From the NCBI GenBank assembly GCA_964481775.1, contig CAYZUX010000002.1, forward strand, positions 20,221 to 84,220: 64,000 nucleotides of DNA, written 5' to 3'. A program made the position numbers and the translations under genes. The DNA comes from an uncultured bacterium. GTDB taxonomy: Bacteria; Hinthialibacterota; Hinthialibacteria; OLB16. This document shows positions 1,244 through 26,442 of this stretch, in pieces. The notes below the pieces were generated by a model. It did not search any database. It saw only the letters and a list, made by a program, of their open reading frames with translations, and was not told the origin of the DNA. Numbering within the stretch: the stretch's first letter is position 1; each line of letters starts with the position of its first letter.

Positions 1244-2578
1244 CTAATCGACTGGTGTTCCACCACCACAGATATCTGGATCAAATACGTTGCGGATATC
1301 CGAATCTGGCGAGGCATCTCGAATCCTCCGGTCATTATTGAGAGGACGATCGATGAGATGCCATTTGATCAGTCCCACATCTCGTGGGGCAGGCCCTTTT
1401 TCTCCAGGCTGAGTCCGATAGCCTGTTCCAAATGCCGTTAATAGAGAACCATCCGGTAACAATACGGTTGAGGTTGCCTGACTGCTGGCCCACCAGCTAT
1501 TCTCATCGAGGCGGTTTGCATTCCAATAGTGCAGGATATATTTGTGATCCAAATCCCAGGATTGCCCGTTATCGTGGCTTAGCACGGCCTCTATGCCAAA
1601 GCGTGGAAATTCATTTCCACTGGTTGTATAACCCTTCCGTACCACATAAGTCATCACAATCTTTCCATCCGGCATGACCACCATGGAGGGATGATGACGT
1701 CCCCAGGCATATAATCTGTTCAGGGTTGACCAGGTTTTTCCATCATCTTTTGAAATAGACACGGCCAGCCCCTCGTAATGGTCCATGGTCTCCGGAAAAT
1801 CCTCGGGTTTGTCTGTCCGGCAGGCAGCAATCAGATTTCCATTCAGGGCCCTTATCAGTGCCACTTCGCTTACACCATACCATTCAGGAACCTGATTGGC
1901 CTGAGACCATGTTCTTCCGGAATCTGTGCTACACCGAATATAGCCCTGTGAATATCCAGGTCCCGCGCCTGATGCCCACAAAGCATGATCCATCGTATAA
2001 CCGGTCTCAATAAGACGTGATATGGCTCCCGTTGTCCGATCACGGTCCACAAACAACGGATCCCACACATTCCAGGGTTTACCTTCTGGAGCGGGTGGAA
2101 CAAGTCCAAGCGATTTCCATGATTCACCGTAATCCTCGCTGAGCCAACGCTGGGTGGCCAACAAAGTGACTTTGCCCCCTCCAAGGTATGCGAGGGCCAC
2201 ACCCATACCCGTATCAGGCTGTCCATCCTCACCCGTATGGACAAACCTGGGCGGGGACCAATGATTCCCCTGATCATCACTCCAAAGCACCATGGCCTGA
2301 TGGGGGTAGTCACAACTCACCAGCATGAGCAGACGGTTTCTTTCAGGCATAAAAACGATGTATGGCACCGCCACCACCCGTTCCCAGGTTTCCGTGAGGA
2401 TCTGGAAATCAGCGGAAATACTGAAGCAACCTGCATCGCCATTCCTTTCCCTCACACGATGCGATTTCCATGCTGCATCCGCATTGGGGCAAATCATCGC
2501 AGCCAGCAGGAACACACACAATACAGGTTTCATACGGGATGACACGACGGACACCTCATGTTGATCAGGAATCTTCAA
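1244..2578 (-). CDS. Secreted BNR/Asp-box repeat glycosyl hydrolase (sialidase-like, GH33-type fold)
   Basis: Signal peptide MKPVLCVFLLAAMICPNADAA. Four Asp-box motifs (S-x-D-x-G-x-T/S-W): SDDQGNHWS, STDSGRTWS, SKDDGKTWS, SHDNGQSWD. Lies 33 nt downstream of the GH5-like gene on the same strand. Confidence 0.65.
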   Translation of the reverse strand: MKIPDQHEVSVVSSRMKPVLCVFLLAAMICPNADAAWKSHRVRERNGDAGCFSISADFQILTETWERVVAVPYIVFMPERNRLLMLVSCDYPHQAMVLWSDDQGNHWSPPRFVHTGEDGQPDTGMGVALAYLGGGKVTLLATQRWLSEDYGESWKSLGLVPPAPEGKPWNVWDPLFVDRDRTTGAISRLIETGYTMDHALWASGAGPGYSQGYIRCSTDSGRTWSQANQVPEWYGVSEVALIRALNGNLIAACRTDKPEDFPETMDHYEGLAVSISKDDGKTWSTLNRLYAWGRHHPSMVVMPDGKIVMTYVVRKGYTTSGNEFPRFGIEAVLSHDNGQSWDLDHKYILHYWNANRLDENSWWASSQATSTVLLPDGSLLTAFGTGYRTQPGEKGPAPRDVGLIKWHLIDRPLNNDRRIRDASPDSDIRNVFDPDICGGGTPVD

Positions 2579-2734
2579 TACTATGATCTGTAACCCAGTG
2601 GATCAATTCCCCTCTCCATTTCAACCATCAGTTGTTTCTGTTCCGGCAATCTCACCGGATCGCTGATTGACCCGCCTTTCAGGATGGGATACCCTATCTA
2701 TAAACAATAGTACCAGTCCTCCACAGATTCATGC

Positions 2735-3853
2735 GTGACTGTCAGTCCAGTGTTGAGGGAGGTCAAGGTAATGAATAGTCAAGGTACCCGGGGAACCTGG
2801 GGAATTCGTTTCCTGATTCACTTCTTCACCGTCGTCCTTGGGATTCTCATTTTCTGGCTTCTCGGTTTCCTTATCCAGGATATCAAGTCAATCCAAGGCC
2901 CCCTCTACAACGACATTGAACGCAAGTATGTCGACCTGAGTCTGATCCAGAAACAAGAGGATCTTGTAAAGCAGATTACCAGCCTCGATCGGGAAATCGC
3001 CAATAAGCGCGAGGAACAGAACCTGGTGGGCAACAGCTCCGAGAACCTCCAACGCACCATCAACCAACTGCTGGAGCTGCAGAAGCTCAGCATCGAGAGA
3101 CAGGTGTCACTTCCTGAATCCGATCAGGCCGACCTGTCTTTGAGCCTCTCTCATTTCCTGGAGAGTCAAAAGAACTATCAAACGCTGAACCAGGAAATCT
3201 CTGGGCTGCTCCTGAAAAAGGAATCACTCGATGCAGAGAAAAGACAGCTGGATGAGGAAATTGAAAAGAAAAGAGAACCAGCCAGAGCGGAATTTGACCA
3301 ATTGTTGGAGAAACACAATTTCAAGCTGGCCTGCATTCAACTGGCTTTTCTGATACCACTGCTCGTTGTCGCAGGATATCTGCTGATCCGTTGGCGTGGG
3401 ATCATCTACTTCCCACTCATCCTCGCCTTCAGTGGAGCCACACTGGTGAAAACCGTCGCTGTGATCCACGATTATTTTCCATCACGCTATTTCAAGTATA
3501 TTGTTACGTTAGGTCTCCTGGTGGTCGTCGCTCAATTTCTCATTTATCTGATCAGAATGATTGCCTATCCCAAGATGGCATGGGTTGCCAAACAGTACCG
3601 TGAGGCATATGAAAGATTTCTCTGCCCGGTCTGCGAGTACCCGATCAGGACGGGACCACGGAAATTCCTTTATTGGACCCGTCGGACTGTCCATAGGGTA
3701 TTGCCTCAAGGAGATCCCTCCTCCACTGACACTCCCTACACATGCCCTTCCTGTGGTACTGTCCTTTACGAAGTCTGCGGCAACTGCGAAAAGATCAGGC
3801 ACTCCCTGCTTGCTCACTGTGAGCATTGTGGAACGAAGAAAGAGATTGGATGA
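2735..3853 (+). CDS. Uncharacterised membrane protein: TM1, ~150-aa coiled coil, three TM helices, C-terminal double zinc ribbon (4 CxxC)
   Basis: Hydrophobic segment FLIHFFTVVLGILIFWLLGFLI, a long heptad/charged region, three further TM helices, then CPVC...CPSC...CGNC...CEHC. Alternative start MNSQG at 2771. No family recognised. Confidence 0.5.
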   Translation: MTVSPVLREVKVMNSQGTRGTWGIRFLIHFFTVVLGILIFWLLGFLIQDIKSIQGPLYNDIERKYVDLSLIQKQEDLVKQITSLDREIANKREEQNLVGNSSENLQRTINQLLELQKLSIERQVSLPESDQADLSLSLSHFLESQKNYQTLNQEISGLLLKKESLDAEKRQLDEEIEKKREPARAEFDQLLEKHNFKLACIQLAFLIPLLVVAGYLLIRWRGIIYFPLILAFSGATLVKTVAVIHDYFPSRYFKYIVTLGLLVVVAQFLIYLIRMIAYPKMAWVAKQYREAYERFLCPVCEYPIRTGPRKFLYWTRRTVHRVLPQGDPSSTDTPYTCPSCGTVLYEVCGNCEKIRHSLLAHCEHCGTKKEIG

Positions 3854-3890
3854 GATCAAAATCTCTGTTCTCCTTATCCCATAAAAACCG

Positions 3891-4628
3891 ATGATGGGTG
3901 AAGCCAAACGTCTCAACAGACCCTGGATGCTCAAACGCCTCCAAGCTCATCTGCAACGCCAAGGGATTCCCCGTATTCAAATGTTCGTGATGGTCTCAGG
4001 AACAGCTTTGGCTGGATTTCTCTCCTCGGTTCTGTTCTTGCGTCTGGGTCTCCATTCCATGTGGCTGCGCTATGGACTGTCAGTGGTGACAGCCTATGGC
4101 GTCTTTCTCACATTCTTATGGTTCTGGGTGATTTATTATCGTGGGAAGCTTTCTTCCTCTCTGGATGGGGGTGATCTGCTGGACCTGACTGATGGAGTGT
4201 GTCAACTTTTTTCCTCAAAATCCTCCGGTGATCCGGTCACTGGTATCAACCAGCTCGCTGAGGATCCAGGCGGTGATATCCCTCTCAAGTCCGCATTCGA
4301 TCTTGAGCTGGATGAAATGCTGGTTCTGCTGGCCTTGCTTGCAGCAATCGGATCCGCATTCGTTTGTTCGATCTACATTATCGCCATTGCACCTGTGCTT
4401 CTGGCTGAGATGATGCTGGATGGTGTCCTTGGAGTGGCTTTGTATCAACGTCTTAAGAAAATCGACCAACATTATTGGCTGGAATCCGCGTTCACGCGGA
4501 CCTGCTTTCCATTCCTCTGGGTTTTGTTCTTTTTCATAATCACTGGGGCAGTTCTTCACTGGTATGCTCCAGAGGCCTTGTCGATTGGCGGTGTCTGGCA
4601 TCATTATCTTTCCGACAACAACAAATAA
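3891..4628 (+). CDS. Uncharacterised 4-TM membrane protein
   Basis: ORF 37 nt downstream of the previous gene on the same strand, with four hydrophobic helices. No recognisable motif. Confidence 0.45.
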   Translation: MMGEAKRLNRPWMLKRLQAHLQRQGIPRIQMFVMVSGTALAGFLSSVLFLRLGLHSMWLRYGLSVVTAYGVFLTFLWFWVIYYRGKLSSSLDGGDLLDLTDGVCQLFSSKSSGDPVTGINQLAEDPGGDIPLKSAFDLELDEMLVLLALLAAIGSAFVCSIYIIAIAPVLLAEMMLDGVLGVALYQRLKKIDQHYWLESAFTRTCFPFLWVLFFFIITGAVLHWYAPEALSIGGVWHHYLSDNNK

Positions 4629-4695
4629 CTTCAAGTCTTACACAATCTCTTCGCCACCATCTGTACAGACTAAGTTGTGTATGAGAGGATACCCC

Positions 4696-7053
4696 ATGAC
4701 AAACCGATACAACAATAATGCCAGATATTATGGAACACACCGAGATCAAGCAGGAACACTTGGAATGCTCCTCCTGATGGTTTGTATCTGTGCCATCACC
4801 ACCTTTTCCTACGCCAACGAAAATCCGACTTCATCATCCACCGAGGAAACAATGACTCTCGAATCCCTTTTTAAGAACCCGCCACGGGAATACCGCATGC
4901 TGCAGATCATTCATCCCTTTCCGGATAACCCTGACACAAACCCCTACAAATGGTTTGGTCAGCGATTTCAGGCACCAGTTTCTGATGGGAACACGAAGCA
5001 AACTCCAAGCTCCCAGCTCGCCGATTTTCTTGTCCATGATGGTTATGGCGGGGTGGTCGCCAATGTATCCTTTGACAAATACCTGGAGAGCGAGGAGGCC
5101 TGGAAGGTTTTCCTGCAAGGAGTCAAGGAATGTAAAGACCGTGGTCTGTTGGTTTGGTTATATGACGAGAAGGGATATCCCAGTGGAAAAGCAGGTGGTT
5201 TGACGATGCGGGATCATCCTGAGTATGAGTGCCAGGGTGTTGTCTGCGCAAAAACCGAAGGCAAGATCATGGTTCGTCACCACTTTCCCAAAGGTGAACG
5301 GTACCTGGGGGCTCCGCTCAGCGTTGTCGCAATTCCCATCGGCGACGAACATCTCGAGATGGAACGATGTCTTCCCATTCCACCTGAGACCTACACCGGA
5401 AAACAGGAACTGGTCTGGCAGGCACCCGACGATAGCGACTGGGTGATTCTCTCTTTTCATAAGCGCTACATGTACGAGGGCACCCATATCGTGACCAACC
5501 TCTCCGATTCCCTGCCCTATATTGACATCATGAATCATGATGCAGTAGCCCGTTTCATCGAACTCACCCATCAAGCCTACCATGACCGTTGCGGTAAGGA
5601 CCTGTGGGATCATATCGATGCAATCTTCACGGATGAACCCTCACTGATGACTGGTTACCTCAAAGAGGAAGAGGGACTGCTGCCTCCCATACCCTGGAGC
5701 CGCGGGTTTGCCGAAGAATTCAACAAGCGGGCCGGATACGACCTGATCCCCAAACTTCCCTTCTTATTTGAAGAATGTGGTGATGAGACAGCATATGTCC
5801 GCATCGATTTCTGGAGGGTGATTTCCCAGCTCATCGAGGAAAATTATTATGGACAGATCCAGGAATGGTGTCAGGCACACGGGATCGCCTCCTCGGGCCA
5901 TGCACTGCTTGAGGAAGGATTACACCATCATGTCATTTTCGAAGGAAATCTATATCGTGACCTACGGCGCCAGGATGTTCCCGGTATCGATATCCTGAGC
6001 TCGAATCCGGAGGAGTTGGCCCGCTCACGCCAGATCCCAGTGCCGAAGTTTGTCAGCTCGGTCGCACACGGAATCGGTGCACCAAAAACCCAAAGCGAGA
6101 CCTCCAGCCATGTCGAACGAACCGGCAACCGTCCCTGCTCTTTTGAGCAGCGAGTCGGAACGATCAACTGGATGTATGTCCAGGGACTGAATTATGTCAC
6201 CTCTTACTACTCGCCCTCGGAATTCTCCGATACGGAAAGAAAAACCTTCAATGATCACATCGGTCGCCTTGGCGCGATGCTCACGCAAGGCAGACATCTT
6301 GCTGACATAGCCGTCTACTACCCCATTCAGAGCATGTGGGGAGCCTGCACCCCGACTGATAAGATTGCTTGGCATCCACCTGTATCCGAGCGGGAACGCC
6401 GTGTGAATGACACATTTGGTGAAGCATCACAGGTACTGCTCGCGAGTCAAAGGGATTTCGATTTCGTCGATGATCAGGCGATCCTTGAAGCTGAGGTGAA
6501 AGATGGCGCGCTTCAACTGCAGGGAGAGTCTTACCGTTGTATGGTTCTGCCAGAAACCTGGGTAATTCCATTGGCTGTGCTCAAGAAAATTACTGCATTT
6601 GTCAATAATGGCGGGAAACTGGTAACCGTGGGAGATCTCCCTTCGGTTGCCGATCGAAAAGGGGATACACCCGAGGTTATCTCCCTTTCGGCTGAATTGA
6701 AATCTTCAGCAAATGTCGCAATCCGGGATAACTCCGCTGGCATGGTCGAGGCCATCAAGCAGTTTCTTCCTGCTGATTTGACTCTTGACAACAGTTGCCC
6801 GGAATTGTTTTATTGTCACCGTGTTCTTGAAAATCGAGACATTTATTTCCTCGCGAATAATGGGAGTGCTCCCATTCAAAGAAAAGTCACGATTCAGACA
6901 GTTGGGAAGGTTGAGAAATGGCATCCCACGACAGGCGAGATACAATCATTAAGCGCGGCCACGGCTGAAGGGAAGACCATCATCGACCTCAGTTTTCAGC
7001 CATTCGAAGGATATTTCCTTGTTGTCAACAGAGATAAATCAAACCAAGAGTGA
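4696..7053 (+). CDS. Large secreted protein, possibly a glycoside hydrolase (family not recognised)
   Basis: Long ORF. Start chosen at MTNRY (4696; a GAGAGGA RBS-like sequence just upstream), giving an R-containing n-region before the hydrophobic core MLLLMVCICAITTFSYA. The track start at 4564 would overlap the upstream gene by 65 nt. The hydrolase call is weak. Confidence 0.45.
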   Translation: MTNRYNNNARYYGTHRDQAGTLGMLLLMVCICAITTFSYANENPTSSSTEETMTLESLFKNPPREYRMLQIIHPFPDNPDTNPYKWFGQRFQAPVSDGNTKQTPSSQLADFLVHDGYGGVVANVSFDKYLESEEAWKVFLQGVKECKDRGLLVWLYDEKGYPSGKAGGLTMRDHPEYECQGVVCAKTEGKIMVRHHFPKGERYLGAPLSVVAIPIGDEHLEMERCLPIPPETYTGKQELVWQAPDDSDWVILSFHKRYMYEGTHIVTNLSDSLPYIDIMNHDAVARFIELTHQAYHDRCGKDLWDHIDAIFTDEPSLMTGYLKEEEGLLPPIPWSRGFAEEFNKRAGYDLIPKLPFLFEECGDETAYVRIDFWRVISQLIEENYYGQIQEWCQAHGIASSGHALLEEGLHHHVIFEGNLYRDLRRQDVPGIDILSSNPEELARSRQIPVPKFVSSVAHGIGAPKTQSETSSHVERTGNRPCSFEQRVGTINWMYVQGLNYVTSYYSPSEFSDTERKTFNDHIGRLGAMLTQGRHLADIAVYYPIQSMWGACTPTDKIAWHPPVSERERRVNDTFGEASQVLLASQRDFDFVDDQAILEAEVKDGALQLQGESYRCMVLPETWVIPLAVLKKITAFVNNGGKLVTVGDLPSVADRKGDTPEVISLSAELKSSANVAIRDNSAGMVEAIKQFLPADLTLDNSCPELFYCHRVLENRDIYFLANNGSAPIQRKVTIQTVGKVEKWHPTTGEIQSLSAATAEGKTIIDLSFQPFEGYFLVVNRDKSNQE

Positions 7054-26365: not shown

Positions 26366-26442
26366 TGGTGGGCGCTACTGGACTTGAACCAGTGACCCCT
26401 TCCATGTCAAGGAAGTACTCTAGCCAGCTGAGCTAAGCGCCC
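26366..26442 (-). tRNA. tRNA-Val (anticodon GAC), 77 nt with encoded CCA
   Basis: RC reads GGGCGCTTAGCTCAGCTGGCTAGAGTACTTCCTTGACATGGAAGGGGTCACTGGTTCAAGTCCAGTAGCGCCCACCA. Acceptor 7 bp GGGCGCT/AGCGCCC; anticodon stem CTTCC/GGAAG with loop TTGACAT; T-arm ACTGG/TTCAAGT/CCAGT. Confidence 0.85.

What the first reader, a model, noticed from the sequence alone, without database searches (positions are those of the whole stretch)
2735..4628. Uncharacterised two-gene membrane module: periplasm-spanning coiled-coil / zinc-ribbon protein plus 4-TM partner
Gene 1 has a TM helix, a ~150-aa heptad-rich coiled coil, three further TM helices and a cytoplasmic double zinc ribbon (CPVC, CPSC, CGNC, CEHC). The odd number of TM helices after the coil puts the coil on the opposite side of the membrane from the ribbon. 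If the ribbon is cytoplasmic, a ~20 nm rod would project into the periplasm. Gene 2, 37 nt downstream, is a 4-TM protein. Neither matches a family I recognise. The arrangement is reminiscent, loosely, of envelope-spanning sensor or defence modules. It sits between glycan-hydrolase genes.
Basis: seen in the sequence. Interest (0 to 1): 0.55.

Follow-up and report, generated by a model that had tools for sequence, protein, structure and literature searches.

The report
Orphan membrane zinc-ribbon protein, not a module
The two genes are real, but they are not a dedicated pair: the first belongs to a large, very conserved and completely unstudied family of stand-alone inner-membrane proteins, and the second is an unrelated small membrane protein that happens to sit next to it in one small lineage.

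Summary
Both ORFs are real genes under purifying selection (dN/dS about 0.06 and 0.14). Gene 1 starts at ATG 2771, giving 360 aa rather than 372.

Gene 1 has one TM helix, then a helical hairpin of fixed length (about 8 nm, not a 20 nm rod) that is most likely periplasmic. Three more TM helices follow, then a cytoplasmic double zinc ribbon with eight invariant Cys.

It belongs to a large superfamily. There are more than 1,400 close homologues in PVC bacteria, Synergistota, Desulfobacterota and others. A Burkholderia/Chromobacterium/Pandoraea branch with more than 3,300 homologues is homologous over the full length (hhalign E 1e-30). No Pfam, NCBIfam, PADLOC, PHROG, PDB or literature match explains it.

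Gene 2 follows gene 1 in only 3 of 83 loci examined. Gene 2 homologues stand alone elsewhere, and a sister contig keeps BNR|gene 2 without gene 1.

My best mechanistic guess, which is inferred, is a self-sufficient protein, probably oligomeric. It would hold a conserved head at a fixed height above the inner membrane and couple it to a cytoplasmic zinc-ribbon binding module.

Interest is moderate: this is an unstudied family that also occurs in pathogens.

The parts
2667..2695 (+). Promoter-like motif TTGACC-N17-TACCCT upstream of gene 1
   Evidence: Read directly from the sequence. The consensus scanner did not call it. The same motif is kept in L003 and L004 upstream of gene 1, and in L087 directly upstream of gene 2, where gene 1 is absent. 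Its function is inferred.
2755..2762 (+). Shine-Dalgarno-like GAGGGAGG, 8 nt before ATG 2771
   Evidence: Homologues are 360 aa and begin at the equivalent Met.
2771..3853 (+). Gene 1 CDS (360 aa plus stop): stand-alone inner-membrane double-zinc-ribbon protein, PVC-type branch of a large uncharacterised superfamily
   Evidence: dN/dS is 0.06 against L003.
2798..2887 (+). TM1 (aa 10-39), ending with the superfamily-wide Asp37
   Evidence: AF2 helix 10-39. Kyte-Doolittle hydrophobic segment 8-41. D37 is conserved in 97% of 126 diverse sequences.
2936..3319 (+). Antiparallel helical hairpin (aa 56-183), predicted periplasmic. The stalk is variable in sequence and the length is fixed.
   Evidence: AF2 helices 56-110 and 116-207. 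The D37-to-P196 spacing is 159 aa in 5-95% of the PVC-type branch and 151-156 aa in the beta-proteobacterial branch. Charge distribution supports the topology.
3035..3190 (+). Conserved 'head' of the hairpin (aa 89-140: SSxNLQRTINQLLELQK ... LSxSLxHFLESQKxYQxLN)
   Evidence: Column identity is 0.74-0.88 here against 0.49-0.57 in the stalk.
3320..3565 (+). TM2-TM4 bundle (aa 184-265) with P196, R209, the Y235-F-P237 turn and Y243
   Evidence: The P196-to-P237 spacing is exactly 41 aa in nearly all of 294 sequences.
3566..3850 (+). Cytoplasmic tail. It has an amphipathic helix (KQYREAYERF), the first CPxC, and a basic/aromatic insert (IRTGPRKFLYWTRRTVH) that is specific to this branch and has low pLDDT. 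Three further CxxC pairs complete the double zinc ribbon.
   Evidence: The window protein's DZR (PF12773) score is sub-threshold (18.6 bits against a cut-off of 27.3). Homologues P0203, P0181 and P0365 score above the cut-off. The C285-to-C325 spacing is 40 aa here and 17 aa in the beta branch.
3841..3866 (+). Small inverted repeat AGAGATT...AATCTCT overlapping the gene 1 stop codon, inside the 37-nt spacer region
   Evidence: Read from the sequence. The scanner did not score it as a terminator. Its significance is unknown.
3891..4628 (+). Gene 2 CDS (245 aa): an independent small family of 4-5-TM proteins with a disordered acidic loop (aa 90-138) and invariant A172-E173...L176-D177
   Evidence: No Pfam or fold match. 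dN/dS is 0.14. It occurs without gene 1 in L083-L088.
1244..2578 (-). Divergent upstream neighbour: BNR/sialidase-like protein. This is context, not part of the unit.
   Evidence: Pfam BNR_2, E 1.8e-14. It is syntenic in L003, L004, L087 and L088.
4564..7053 (+). Downstream neighbour: GH106-like glycoside hydrolase. This is context. The listed ORF start overlaps gene 2, so the real start is probably further downstream.
   Evidence: Pfam Glyco_hydro_106, E 9.7e-32. It is syntenic in L004 and L087. A signal-peptide-like stretch MLLLMVCICAITTFSYA lies about 67 codons in.

Best explanation
**What it is (shown).** The region holds two real genes that are probably co-transcribed, but they are not a dedicated functional pair.

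Gene 1 (2771..3853, 360 aa) belongs to a large, unnamed, single-gene family of inner-membrane proteins. The architecture is rigidly conserved:
- an N-terminus inside the cell and TM1, ending in a near-universal Asp;
- a fixed-length antiparallel helical hairpin of about 8 nm, with a variable stalk and a conserved head;
- TM2-TM4, with exactly 41 residues between two invariant prolines;
- an amphipathic helix;
- a double zinc ribbon with eight invariant Cys.

Gene 2 (3891..4628) belongs to a separate small family of 4-5-TM proteins. It is a resident of this locus. It is adjacent to gene 1 only in one small clade and survives without it.

**How it most likely works (inferred).** Gene 1 acts on its own, probably as a homo-oligomer. 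Its hairpin projects into the periplasm and holds the conserved polar head at a fixed height above the inner membrane. There the head would bind an envelope component. The tightly packed TM bundle links the head to a cytoplasmic zinc-ribbon module. In this branch that module also carries a conserved, flexible basic/aromatic motif, which would engage a cytoplasmic partner. The partner must be broadly conserved (nucleic acid, ribosome or acidic lipid), because the gene works in many phyla without a co-transferred partner.

My confidence is about 0.85 for the identity and organisation, about 0.7 for the topology, and about 0.3 for the coupling mechanism.
For: **Family size and full-length homology**
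- There are 1,406 homologues at E <= 1e-3, mostly about 360 aa.
- There are 497 clusters at 50% identity.
- A pattern-limited scan found 175 species in GTDB genomes.
- A search seeded with a Paraburkholderia homologue found more than 3,355 proteins.
- hhalign of A1 against A3 gives probability 99.85 and E 1e-30 over 334 columns.
- The gene 1 HMM hits the beta-proteobacterial loci at E 1e-13 to 1e-16.

**Architecture**
- The AF2 model has mean pLDDT 78.8 and shows the hairpin and four TM helices.
- Hydropathy agrees.
- Invariant residues and the eight Cys are documented.
- The spacings are constant: D37-P196 is 159 aa and P196-P237 is 41 aa.

**Topology**
- The charge distribution follows the positive-inside rule.

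**Stand-alone nature**
- Gene 2 is downstream in 3 of 83 loci.
- No conserved neighbour was found.
- Gene contexts are heterogeneous.

**Independence of gene 2**
- L083-L088 carry gene 2 without gene 1.
- L087 has BNR (74% identity) next to gene 2 (50% identity) with the same promoter-like motif and no gene 1.
- Gene 2 identities give the grouping ((window, L003), (L004, L087)). Loss of gene 1 in the L087 lineage is therefore the most parsimonious history.

**Portability between hosts**
- The tree mixes phyla.
- Some copies are 86-96% identical in protein yet sit in flanks with no detectable similarity.
Against: - No experiment or characterised homologue exists, so the mechanism rests on anatomy alone.
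- Topology was not tested with a dedicated predictor or with reporter fusions. The TM3-TM4 loop carries a conserved Arg and Lys, which weakens the positive-inside argument.
- Oligomerisation could not be modelled with the tools available.
- The head motifs differ between the PVC-type and beta-proteobacterial branches. Any periplasmic ligand may therefore differ between branches.
- Gene 1 and gene 2 have stayed adjacent and co-oriented, 25-44 nt apart, in at least three sequenced lineages while gene 2 diverged to 47% identity. Matching contig lengths suggest a fourth. A lineage-specific functional link is therefore not excluded.
- Taxon labels behind the horizontal-transfer inference are the depositors' own and were not checked.
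Confidence: 0.6

Rival explanations
1. Genuine two-gene module. Gene 1 and gene 2 would form a heteromeric membrane complex, at least in this lineage.
For: - The genes are co-oriented with a 37-nt gap and no terminator-like site between them.
- The same order is kept in L003 and L004, although gene 2 is only 47% identical in L004.
- Both are membrane proteins. Gene 2 has an invariant Glu and Asp in a hydrophobic helix.
Against: - 80 of 83 gene-1 loci lack gene 2 within 10 kb, and none of the beta-proteobacterial loci has it.
- No analogous multi-TM neighbour replaces it.
- Gene 2 homologues live alone in unrelated contexts.
- In L087/L088, gene 2 stays behind the same BNR gene and promoter-like motif without gene 1.
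- BNR and GH106 are retained in the same clade. Ordinary synteny therefore explains the adjacency.
Confidence: 0.08
2. Oligomeric ion channel or small transporter. Several copies of the 4-TM bundle would form a pore, and the hairpins and zinc ribbons would act as extramembrane gates, as the cytoplasmic funnel does in CorA.
For: - The TM helices are very well conserved, with column identity 0.69-0.88.
- There is a near-universal Asp at the end of TM1 and a Pro in TM2.
- TM spacing is rigid.
- The long helix runs straight into TM2.
- There is a weak CorA-like PADLOC hit over aa 154-245 of the 372-aa ORF (E 0.092).
Against: - The CorA-like hit is not significant.
- Q190 and K227 are conserved only in the PVC-type branch. 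In the beta branch they align with Arg and with a hydrophobic residue.
- No riboswitch or ion-related neighbour was found.
Confidence: 0.15
3. Single-gene anti-phage or abortive-infection protein. The membrane sensor would trigger membrane damage on infection.
For: - The gene is patchily distributed, in 175 of about 185,000 species by a pattern-limited scan.
- There are signs of inter-phylum transfer of the bare gene.
- One locus, L093, lies among toxin-antitoxin and AAA_15/21 genes.
- TM plus coiled-coil architectures are common among defence effectors (general knowledge).
Against: - PADLOC gives no hit beyond coiled-coil noise.
- No relative was found in IMG/VR.
- Most neighbourhoods are housekeeping or metabolic.
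- The protein occurs across many Burkholderia pseudomallei, thailandensis and cepacia-complex assemblies.
- Sequence and length are unusually conserved, unlike fast-evolving defence genes.
Confidence: 0.07
4. Inverted topology. The hairpin would be cytoplasmic, as in the ExbB/MotA type or the soluble hairpin-plus-zinc-ribbon proteins HP0958/CT398. The protein would then act entirely on the cytoplasmic face.
For: - There is a weak Zn_ribbon_9 hit (E 0.069).
- The TM3-TM4 loop has conserved basic residues.
Against: - With four TM helices, a cytoplasmic hairpin would put the Cys4 zinc ribbons in the periplasm. It would also put the positively charged N-terminus outside, against the charge pattern.
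- No MotA_ExbB, TolQ or DUF164 model hit was found.
- No MotB/ExbD-like partner is present.
Confidence: 0.1

Closest known systems
Database proteins named 'double zinc ribbon family protein' or 'zinc ribbon domain-containing protein' in Burkholderia, Paraburkholderia, Chromobacterium and Pandoraea (for example B. pseudomallei WP_038774400.1 and B. thailandensis ABC36997.1)
   Same: The architecture is the same over the full length: TM, hairpin, three TM helices, then four CxxC pairs. hhalign gives E 1e-30 over 334 columns. Lengths are 350-370 aa, and the P196-P237 spacing of 41 aa is identical. These genes also stand alone.
   Different: Identity is only 20-24%. The hairpin head motif differs. 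The hairpin is 3-8 residues shorter. The zinc ribbon is compact, with 17 instead of 40 residues between the first two CxxC pairs, and lacks the IRTGPRKFLYWTRRTV insert. Function is equally unknown. The 'serine endopeptidase' label on some entries has no support.
Pfam DZR (PF12773), and the small archaeal four-CxxC proteins (COG2888/DUF1610, HVO_2753 family, PRK14890) seen bound to archaeal ribosomes in PDB 6SKF, 6SW9 and 9FNY
   Same: The C-terminal domain has the same pattern of four CxxC knuckles. DZR passes its cut-off in some family members. These are the recurring best hits for the domain, although they are not significant.
   Different: The window protein is below every cut-off: DZR 18.6 against 27.3 bits, PRK14890 18.2 against 61, HVO_2753 14 against 80. 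Those proteins are soluble and about 60 aa. Here the domain is tethered to a 4-TM protein. RNA or ribosome binding is only an analogy.
DUF4407 (PF14362), an uncharacterised bacterial family with TM helices and a coiled coil
   Same: Beta-branch members give repeated hits at E 3e-6 to 4e-3 over the coiled-coil region. Architecture recalled from memory: TM helices flanking a long coil.
   Different: All hits are below the gathering score (at most 27.1 against 31.3 bits) and cover only the coil (aa 57-189 against profile positions 126-254 of 297). The window protein gives no hit at E <= 1. DUF4407 has no zinc ribbon and no known function.
Alpha-hairpins of periplasmic adaptor (membrane fusion) proteins such as EmrA, LipC and HlyD
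   Same: Both are inner-membrane-anchored antiparallel helical hairpins that project into the periplasm with a conserved tip. EmrA and LipC appear among weak sequence and fold hits.
   Different: Gene 1 has no lipoyl or beta-barrel domains and no HlyD-type Pfam hit. No transporter or outer-membrane factor gene is adjacent. The E-values are not significant. Gene 1 also has three extra TM helices and a zinc ribbon.
HP0958 / CT398 / MSMEG_4306 (DUF164, Zn_ribbon_9): a coiled-coil hairpin followed by a C4 zinc ribbon
   Different: Those proteins are soluble and cytoplasmic. Here three TM helices separate the hairpin from the ribbon and place them on opposite sides of the membrane. The Pfam Zn_ribbon_9 hit is only E 0.069. 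Many unrelated coiled coils score the same Z.

Membership tests
Unnamed 'TM-hairpin-3TM-double zinc ribbon' superfamily (PVC-type and Burkholderia-type branches) | Full-length homology with constant domain order and a length of about 350-370 aa | tested here: met
   The gene 1 HMM scores the window ORF at 634 bits. Homologues cover 95-99% of the query. hhalign between the branches gives E 1e-30 over 334 columns.
Unnamed 'TM-hairpin-3TM-double zinc ribbon' superfamily (PVC-type and Burkholderia-type branches) | Signature residues D37, P196, P237, Y243, Y280 and eight Cys, with a P196-P237 spacing of 41 aa | tested here: met
   All are present in the window protein. Each is 92-98% conserved in 126 diverse sequences. 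Spacing is documented.
Pfam DZR, double zinc ribbon (PF12773) | HMM score at or above the gathering cut-off of 27.3 bits | tested here: not met
   The window protein scores 18.6 bits, E 0.0022. Relatives P0203, P0181 and P0365 score 27.7-28.2 bits. The domain assignment is therefore reasonable by transitivity.
Pfam DZR, double zinc ribbon (PF12773) | Four CxxC knuckles forming two zinc sites | tested here: met
   CPVC, CPSC, CGNC and CEHC are invariant. Zinc binding itself cannot be tested with these tools.
DUF4407 (PF14362) | HMM score at or above the gathering cut-off of 31.3 bits, spanning both the TM and coil regions | tested here: not met
   The window protein gives no hit at E <= 1. Beta-branch members score at most 27.1 bits, over the coil only.
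COG2888 / PRK14890 / HVO_2753 small zinc-ribbon (RNA-binding) proteins | Score above the NCBIfam cut-offs (61 and 80 bits) and a small soluble protein of about 60 aa | tested here: not met
   Scores are 18.2 and 14 bits. PDB hits have E 0.1-6. The protein is a 360-aa membrane protein.
Two-gene operonic module (gene 1 plus gene 2) | Co-occurrence and adjacency of the two families across related genomes | tested here: not met
   Gene 2 follows gene 1 in 3 of 83 gene-1 loci. Six gene-2 loci lack gene 1. L087 kept gene 2 after losing gene 1.
Known anti-phage defence systems (PADLOC-DB) | Significant match to a defence protein model, or location in a defence island | tested here: not met
   Only coiled-coil noise was found: E 0.09 or worse for the window proteins, and LmuB at E 8e-4 for one beta-branch member. 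Neighbourhoods are mostly metabolic.
   No ZipA, FtsB or DivIC hit was found in Pfam or NCBIfam for the window protein. P0247 gave only an FtsL_2 hit at E 0.084.
Periplasmic adaptor / membrane fusion proteins (HlyD, EmrA) | Hairpin flanked by lipoyl and beta-barrel domains, with the gene next to a transporter | tested here: not met
   No HlyD-family Pfam hit. The EmrA match has E 0.17 and covers the coil only. No transporter neighbour is conserved.
CorA-type or MotA/ExbB-type membrane assemblies | Family HMM match, signature motif (GMN for CorA), and a partner protein with a TM Asp (for stators) | tested here: not met

The most novel reading that the evidence does not exclude
Gene 1 would represent a new class of self-sufficient, one-protein transmembrane coupling device. 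In this reading, a fixed-length periplasmic 'ruler' hairpin reports on an envelope feature. It reports to a cytoplasmic double zinc ribbon that binds a universal partner such as RNA or the ribosome. The gene would spread between phyla as a bare single-gene unit. In one clade that unit is bounded by an 8-nt inverted repeat (GTTGGAAC...GTTCCAAC), which hints at an undescribed cassette-like transfer mechanism.
Probability: 0.12. Interest if true: 0.7.

Novelty: new member of a known kind. Interest (0 to 1): 0.36.

Why it matters
The proposed two-gene envelope module does not hold up, so there is no new system here.

What remains is a useful lead. The family is very large and unusually constrained. 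It runs to thousands of proteins, has identical spacing of structural landmarks, and its PVC-type branch shows a median pairwise identity of 56% across differently labelled phyla. It occurs in environmental PVC bacteria and also in tractable, medically relevant Burkholderia. Yet it has no curated family model, no solved structure and no paper.

A single knockout or a transposon-fitness look-up in Burkholderia thailandensis or Chromobacterium could assign a first function to all of these proteins. The gene-sized blocks of 85-88% nucleotide identity in otherwise unrelated contigs are also worth a specialist's look, because they may show how single genes move between hosts.

Tried and rejected
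**Family and structure searches that gave nothing**
- Pfam, NCBIfam, PADLOC and PHROG scans of both proteins and of distant relatives gave nothing above cut-off except DZR in a few relatives.
- Profile searches against PDB sequences with A1 and A3 gave no significant hit.
- Foldseek on the gene 2 model returned nothing.
- The afdb50 library was unavailable.

**Regulatory and mobile-element leads**
- Rfam found no riboswitch or RNA element near the genes.
- An IMG/VR scan found no viral relative.

**Neighbourhood analysis**
- Clustering of neighbours around 81 loci found no conserved partner. The top clusters were shadow ORFs of gene 1 itself.
- A search for a non-homologous multi-TM downstream partner found none.

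**Ideas rejected**
- I considered a periplasmic metal site formed by D37, H182 and H233. I dropped it because both His residues are conserved only in the PVC-type branch.
- I considered that the inverted repeat bounding the recently spread clade is an integron attC. I did not accept this. The core consensus is not met, homology does not extend through an attC-sized element, and only 1-2 of 6 downstream regions fold better than shuffles.

**Literature**
- Searches for DUF4407, for 'double zinc ribbon' with Burkholderia, and for zinc ribbon, coiled-coil and Planctomycetes found no functional study.
Full report
**1. Checking the observation**

The two ORFs exist as described, at 2735..3853 and 3891..4628 on the plus strand, 37 nt apart. 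No terminator-like site lies between them.

Gene 1 most likely starts at ATG 2771. GAGGGAGG sits 8 nt upstream of it, and almost all homologues are 360 aa and begin at the equivalent Met. All residue numbers below use the 360-aa protein.

Both genes are real.
- Gene 1 has 1,406 homologues at E <= 1e-3.
- Gene 2 has 25 homologues.
- Against the closest syntenic relative, L003, dN/dS is 0.101/1.74 for gene 1 and 0.111/0.82 for gene 2.

Hydropathy gives four hydrophobic segments in gene 1 (aa 8-41, 182-212, 211-232 and 240-267) and four to five in gene 2. The four CxxC pairs are invariant.

Neither protein reaches the cut-off of any Pfam, NCBIfam, PADLOC or PHROG model. The flanking genes are BNR/sialidase-like and GH106-like. 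The window is ordinary chromosome, carrying ThrRS, RecN, cytochrome b, GH92 and a GT41-TPR protein.

**2. Anatomy of gene 1**

An AlphaFold2 model built from 46 homologues has mean pLDDT 78.8. It gives these elements:

| Element | Residues |
|---|---|
| TM1 | 10-39 |
| Short helix | 46-53 |
| Hairpin helix 1 | 56-110 |
| Turn | 111-115 |
| Hairpin helix 2, running without a break into TM2 | 116-207 |
| TM3 | 214-235 |
| TM4 | 238-265 |
| Amphipathic helix | 269-282 |
| Zinc-knuckle region | 285 onwards |

The 'coil' is therefore an antiparallel hairpin of about 55 residues per arm. That is about 8 nm of reach, not a 20 nm rod.

Conservation along the hairpin is uneven.
- The membrane-proximal stalk is variable, with column identity 0.49-0.57.
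- The distal 'head' (aa 89-110 and 122-140) is highly conserved, at 0.74-0.88. It is rich in invariant polar residues: S89, S90, N92, Q94, T96, Q99, S125, Q133 and Q137.

The cytoplasmic stretch 281-310 (ERFLCPVCEYPIRTGPRKFLYWTRRTVH) is the best-conserved part of the protein, at 0.87-0.95. Residues 296-310 have low pLDDT. That combination suggests a flexible motif that becomes ordered on binding something.

**3. Topology**

Across the 46 homologues, net charge by segment is as follows:

| Segment | Net charge |
|---|---|
| N-terminus | +1.9 |
| 19 residues after TM1 | -3.0 |
| TM2-TM3 loop | +1.7 |
| After TM4 | +1.7 (4.2 Lys/Arg on average) |

Cys4 zinc sites are expected in the cytoplasm (general knowledge). 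The call is not decisive, because the tight TM3-TM4 turn also carries a conserved Arg and Lys.

**4. The family is much larger than it first appears**

Close homologues are about 55-65% identical to the window protein. They occur in MAGs labelled Planctomycetota, Verrucomicrobiota, Lentisphaerota, Kiritimatiellota, Hydrogenedentota, Omnitrophota, Synergistota, Desulfobacterota and Halothiobacillus. A pattern-limited scan found 175 of about 185,000 GTDB species. The exhaustive profile search found 497 clusters at 50% identity.

A tblastn search of plasmid and chromid records found homologues at 20-24% identity in Burkholderia and Paraburkholderia. A search seeded with one of them returned more than 3,355 proteins. 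These come from Burkholderia (including B. pseudomallei, B. thailandensis and the cepacia complex), Chromobacterium, Pandoraea, Acidobacteriaceae and Gemmatimonadaceae.

The two branches are homologous over the full length (hhalign probability 99.85, E 1e-30, 334 columns).

In 126 sequences that are under 60% identical to each other, these positions are conserved at 85% or more: D37, P196, P237, Y243, Y280, P286, G329, G354 and all eight Cys.

The geometry is strikingly fixed.
- D37-P196 is 159 aa in 5-95% of the PVC-type branch and 151-156 aa in the beta branch.
- P196-P237 is 41 aa in essentially every sequence.
- The main difference between branches is the insert between the first two zinc knuckles: 40 residues in the PVC-type branch and 17 in the beta branch.

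Database names are only generic: 'double zinc ribbon family protein', 'zinc ribbon domain-containing protein' and 'hypothetical'. Some entries are labelled 'serine endopeptidase', which no model supports.

DZR (PF12773) passes its cut-off in a few members. DUF4407 gives repeated sub-threshold matches that cover only the coil. Neither DUF4407 nor this family has a functional study behind it.

**5. Is it a two-gene module? No.**

A gene 2 HMM finds a downstream gene 2 only in the window, L003 and L004, out of 83 gene-1 loci. It finds none in the beta-proteobacterial loci.

Clustering of all neighbours found no family shared beyond within-lineage synteny. Downstream neighbours differ in strand, size and TM content.

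Gene contexts are heterogeneous:
- FGE-sulfatase and GYF-domain genes;
- URO-D and sulfatases;
- DUF305 and methyltransferases;
- toxin-antitoxin genes;
- AsnC;
- tkt-gap-X-pgk-fba;
- rpiA-X.

Conversely, gene 2 homologues stand alone. They lie between panB and panC (L083-85), next to DUF1800/DUF1501 genes (L086), and in L087/L088 directly beside the orthologous BNR gene (74% identity) with no gene 1.

The promoter-like motif TTGACC-N17-TACCCT (window 2667-2695) lies upstream of gene 1 in the window, L003 and L004. In L087 it lies upstream of gene 2.

Gene 2 identities are window-L003 81%, L004-L087 73% and about 48% across the two pairs. This gives the grouping ((window, L003), (L004, L087)). 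The most parsimonious history is an ancestral BNR|gene 1-gene 2 arrangement with later loss of gene 1 in the L087 lineage.

Gene 2 therefore does not need gene 1, and nearly all gene 1 relatives do without gene 2. The adjacency is probably ordinary synteny, because BNR and GH106 are kept in the same clade too. A lineage-specific interaction cannot be formally excluded.

**6. Gene 2**

The AF2 model has pLDDT 69.7. Its elements are:
- an N-terminal helix;
- TM helices at 26-51 and from 57 onwards;
- a disordered acidic loop at 90-138;
- helices at 140-166, 168-188 and 193-225;
- a C-terminal helix.

Residues A172-E173...L176-D177 are invariant. There is no Pfam match and no structural match. 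Its function remains unknown.

**7. Mobility of gene 1**

A neighbour-joining tree mixes differently labelled phyla.

In one clade, proteins are 86-96% identical. The members are L018, L020, L022, L033, L034, L037, L039, L041 and L058, labelled Lentisphaerota, Verrucomicrobiota and Desulfobacula. For the pairs compared, tblastx finds no similarity at all in 3-10 kb of flanking sequence. Nucleotide homology of 85-88% covers only the ORF, plus 20-45 nt upstream and 3-15 nt downstream.

At the edges of that block sits an 8-nt inverted repeat: GTTGGAAC at position -26 and GTTCCAAC just after the stop codon. It is perfect in L034 and L041. It resembles integron-cassette ends, but it fails the consensus, and no consistent attC-like fold follows it.

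The taxon labels are the depositors' own and were not verified. This feature is absent around the window's own copy, which is a long-term resident of its locus.

**8. How it most likely works (inference)**

Four facts constrain the mechanism.
- The gene needs no dedicated partner, yet it functions in many phyla.
- Every segment is conserved in all branches.
- The stalk varies in sequence but is fixed in length, while the head is conserved.
- The cytoplasmic end is a zinc-ribbon binding module, with a flexible basic/aromatic motif in this branch.

The reading that fits best is a self-sufficient protein, probably homo-oligomeric. It would present a binding head at a set height of about 8 nm above the inner membrane and couple it, through a rigid TM bundle, to a cytoplasmic zinc-ribbon module. 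That module would bind a broadly conserved partner.

The only recurring similarity for the domain, and it is not significant, is to small four-CxxC proteins found on archaeal ribosomes. RNA or ribosome binding is therefore a lead and not a result. I put this mechanism at about 0.3.

The alternatives are:
- an oligomeric channel (0.15);
- an inverted topology with a wholly cytoplasmic role (0.1);
- a defence or abortive-infection protein (0.07);
- a true gene 1/gene 2 complex (0.08).

**9. Verdict**

The 'module' interpretation is not.

Gene 1 is a new member of a catalogued but entirely uncharacterised protein family. It is remarkable for its conservation and for its presence in tractable Burkholderia. 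Gene 2 is an unrelated orphan membrane protein.

Interest is moderate. No new system has been demonstrated, but there is a clear and cheap route to a first function for thousands of proteins.

Noticed in passing
L034 (ATG about 1345; stop about 2416), L041, L020, L018, L058, L037, L033, L039, L036: In one clade of gene 1, copies that are 85-88% identical in nucleotides sit in completely unrelated flanks. The homology block is bounded by an 8-nt inverted repeat: GTTGGAAC 26 nt before the ATG and GTTCCAAC 1 nt after the stop. L036 has GTTAGAAC and GTTCTAtg, which may be a compensatory change. The arrangement looks cassette-like but does not meet the attC consensus.
   Followed up: partly
window 2667-2695; L087 about 2610-2645; L003 and L004 upstream of gene 1: A promoter-like motif, TTGACC-N17-TACCCT(ATC), is conserved in the BNR/gene 1 intergenic region of the relatives. 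In L087 it lies directly upstream of gene 2, where gene 1 is missing. The consensus promoter scanner did not call it.
   Followed up: partly
L046 2253-3821 and L069; also L019, L031, L045, L062: In Synergistota loci, a gene for an endonuclease/exonuclease/phosphatase-like protein and one for a cardiolipin-synthase-like protein lie upstream of gene 1. Both were identified by reading the sequence, not with an HMM. In L046 and L069 the synthase-like ORF ends 4 nt inside gene 1, which suggests translational coupling. This is a lineage-limited hint of a link to membrane lipids.
   Followed up: no
L095 3798-7270 (Chromobacterium sphagni): The beta-branch homologue sits between gap and pgk in a tkt-gap-X-pgk-lysE-fba cluster, 9 nt before pgk. 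In Pandoraea (L096) it directly follows rpiA. These are central-carbon-metabolism neighbourhoods. Their meaning is unknown.
   Followed up: no
L083 6001-6708, L084, L085: A gene 2 homologue (35% identity) lies between panB and panC in what looks like a proteobacterial contig. This shows that the gene 2 family has a life of its own, independent of gene 1.
   Followed up: partly
window 4564-4628 and 4564-7053: The longest GH106-like ORF overlaps the last 65 nt of gene 2. A signal-peptide-like stretch, MLLLMVCICAITTFSYA, begins about 67 codons in. The true start is therefore probably downstream and the overlap is an artefact of ORF listing.
   Followed up: no
window 3841-3866: A short inverted repeat, AGAGATT-N12-AATCTCT, overlaps the stop codon of gene 1. 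The scanner did not score it as a terminator.
   Followed up: no
P0352, P0354, P0365, P0394, P0408 (Chromobacterium, Pandoraea, Burkholderiales): Several beta-branch family members are labelled 'serine endopeptidase' in NCBI or UniProt. No Pfam or NCBIfam protease model matches them, so the label looks like a propagated annotation error.
   Followed up: partly
window 26369-26442 (-): This is the only Rfam hit in the window above the gathering score: a tRNA gene (64.6 bits).
   Followed up: no
P0298 and P0300 (Paraburkholderia sabiae, same 2.31-Mb contig): Two paralogous copies of the beta-branch protein, 89% and 84% identical to the query, occur in one genome. The family is therefore not always single-copy.
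   Followed up: no
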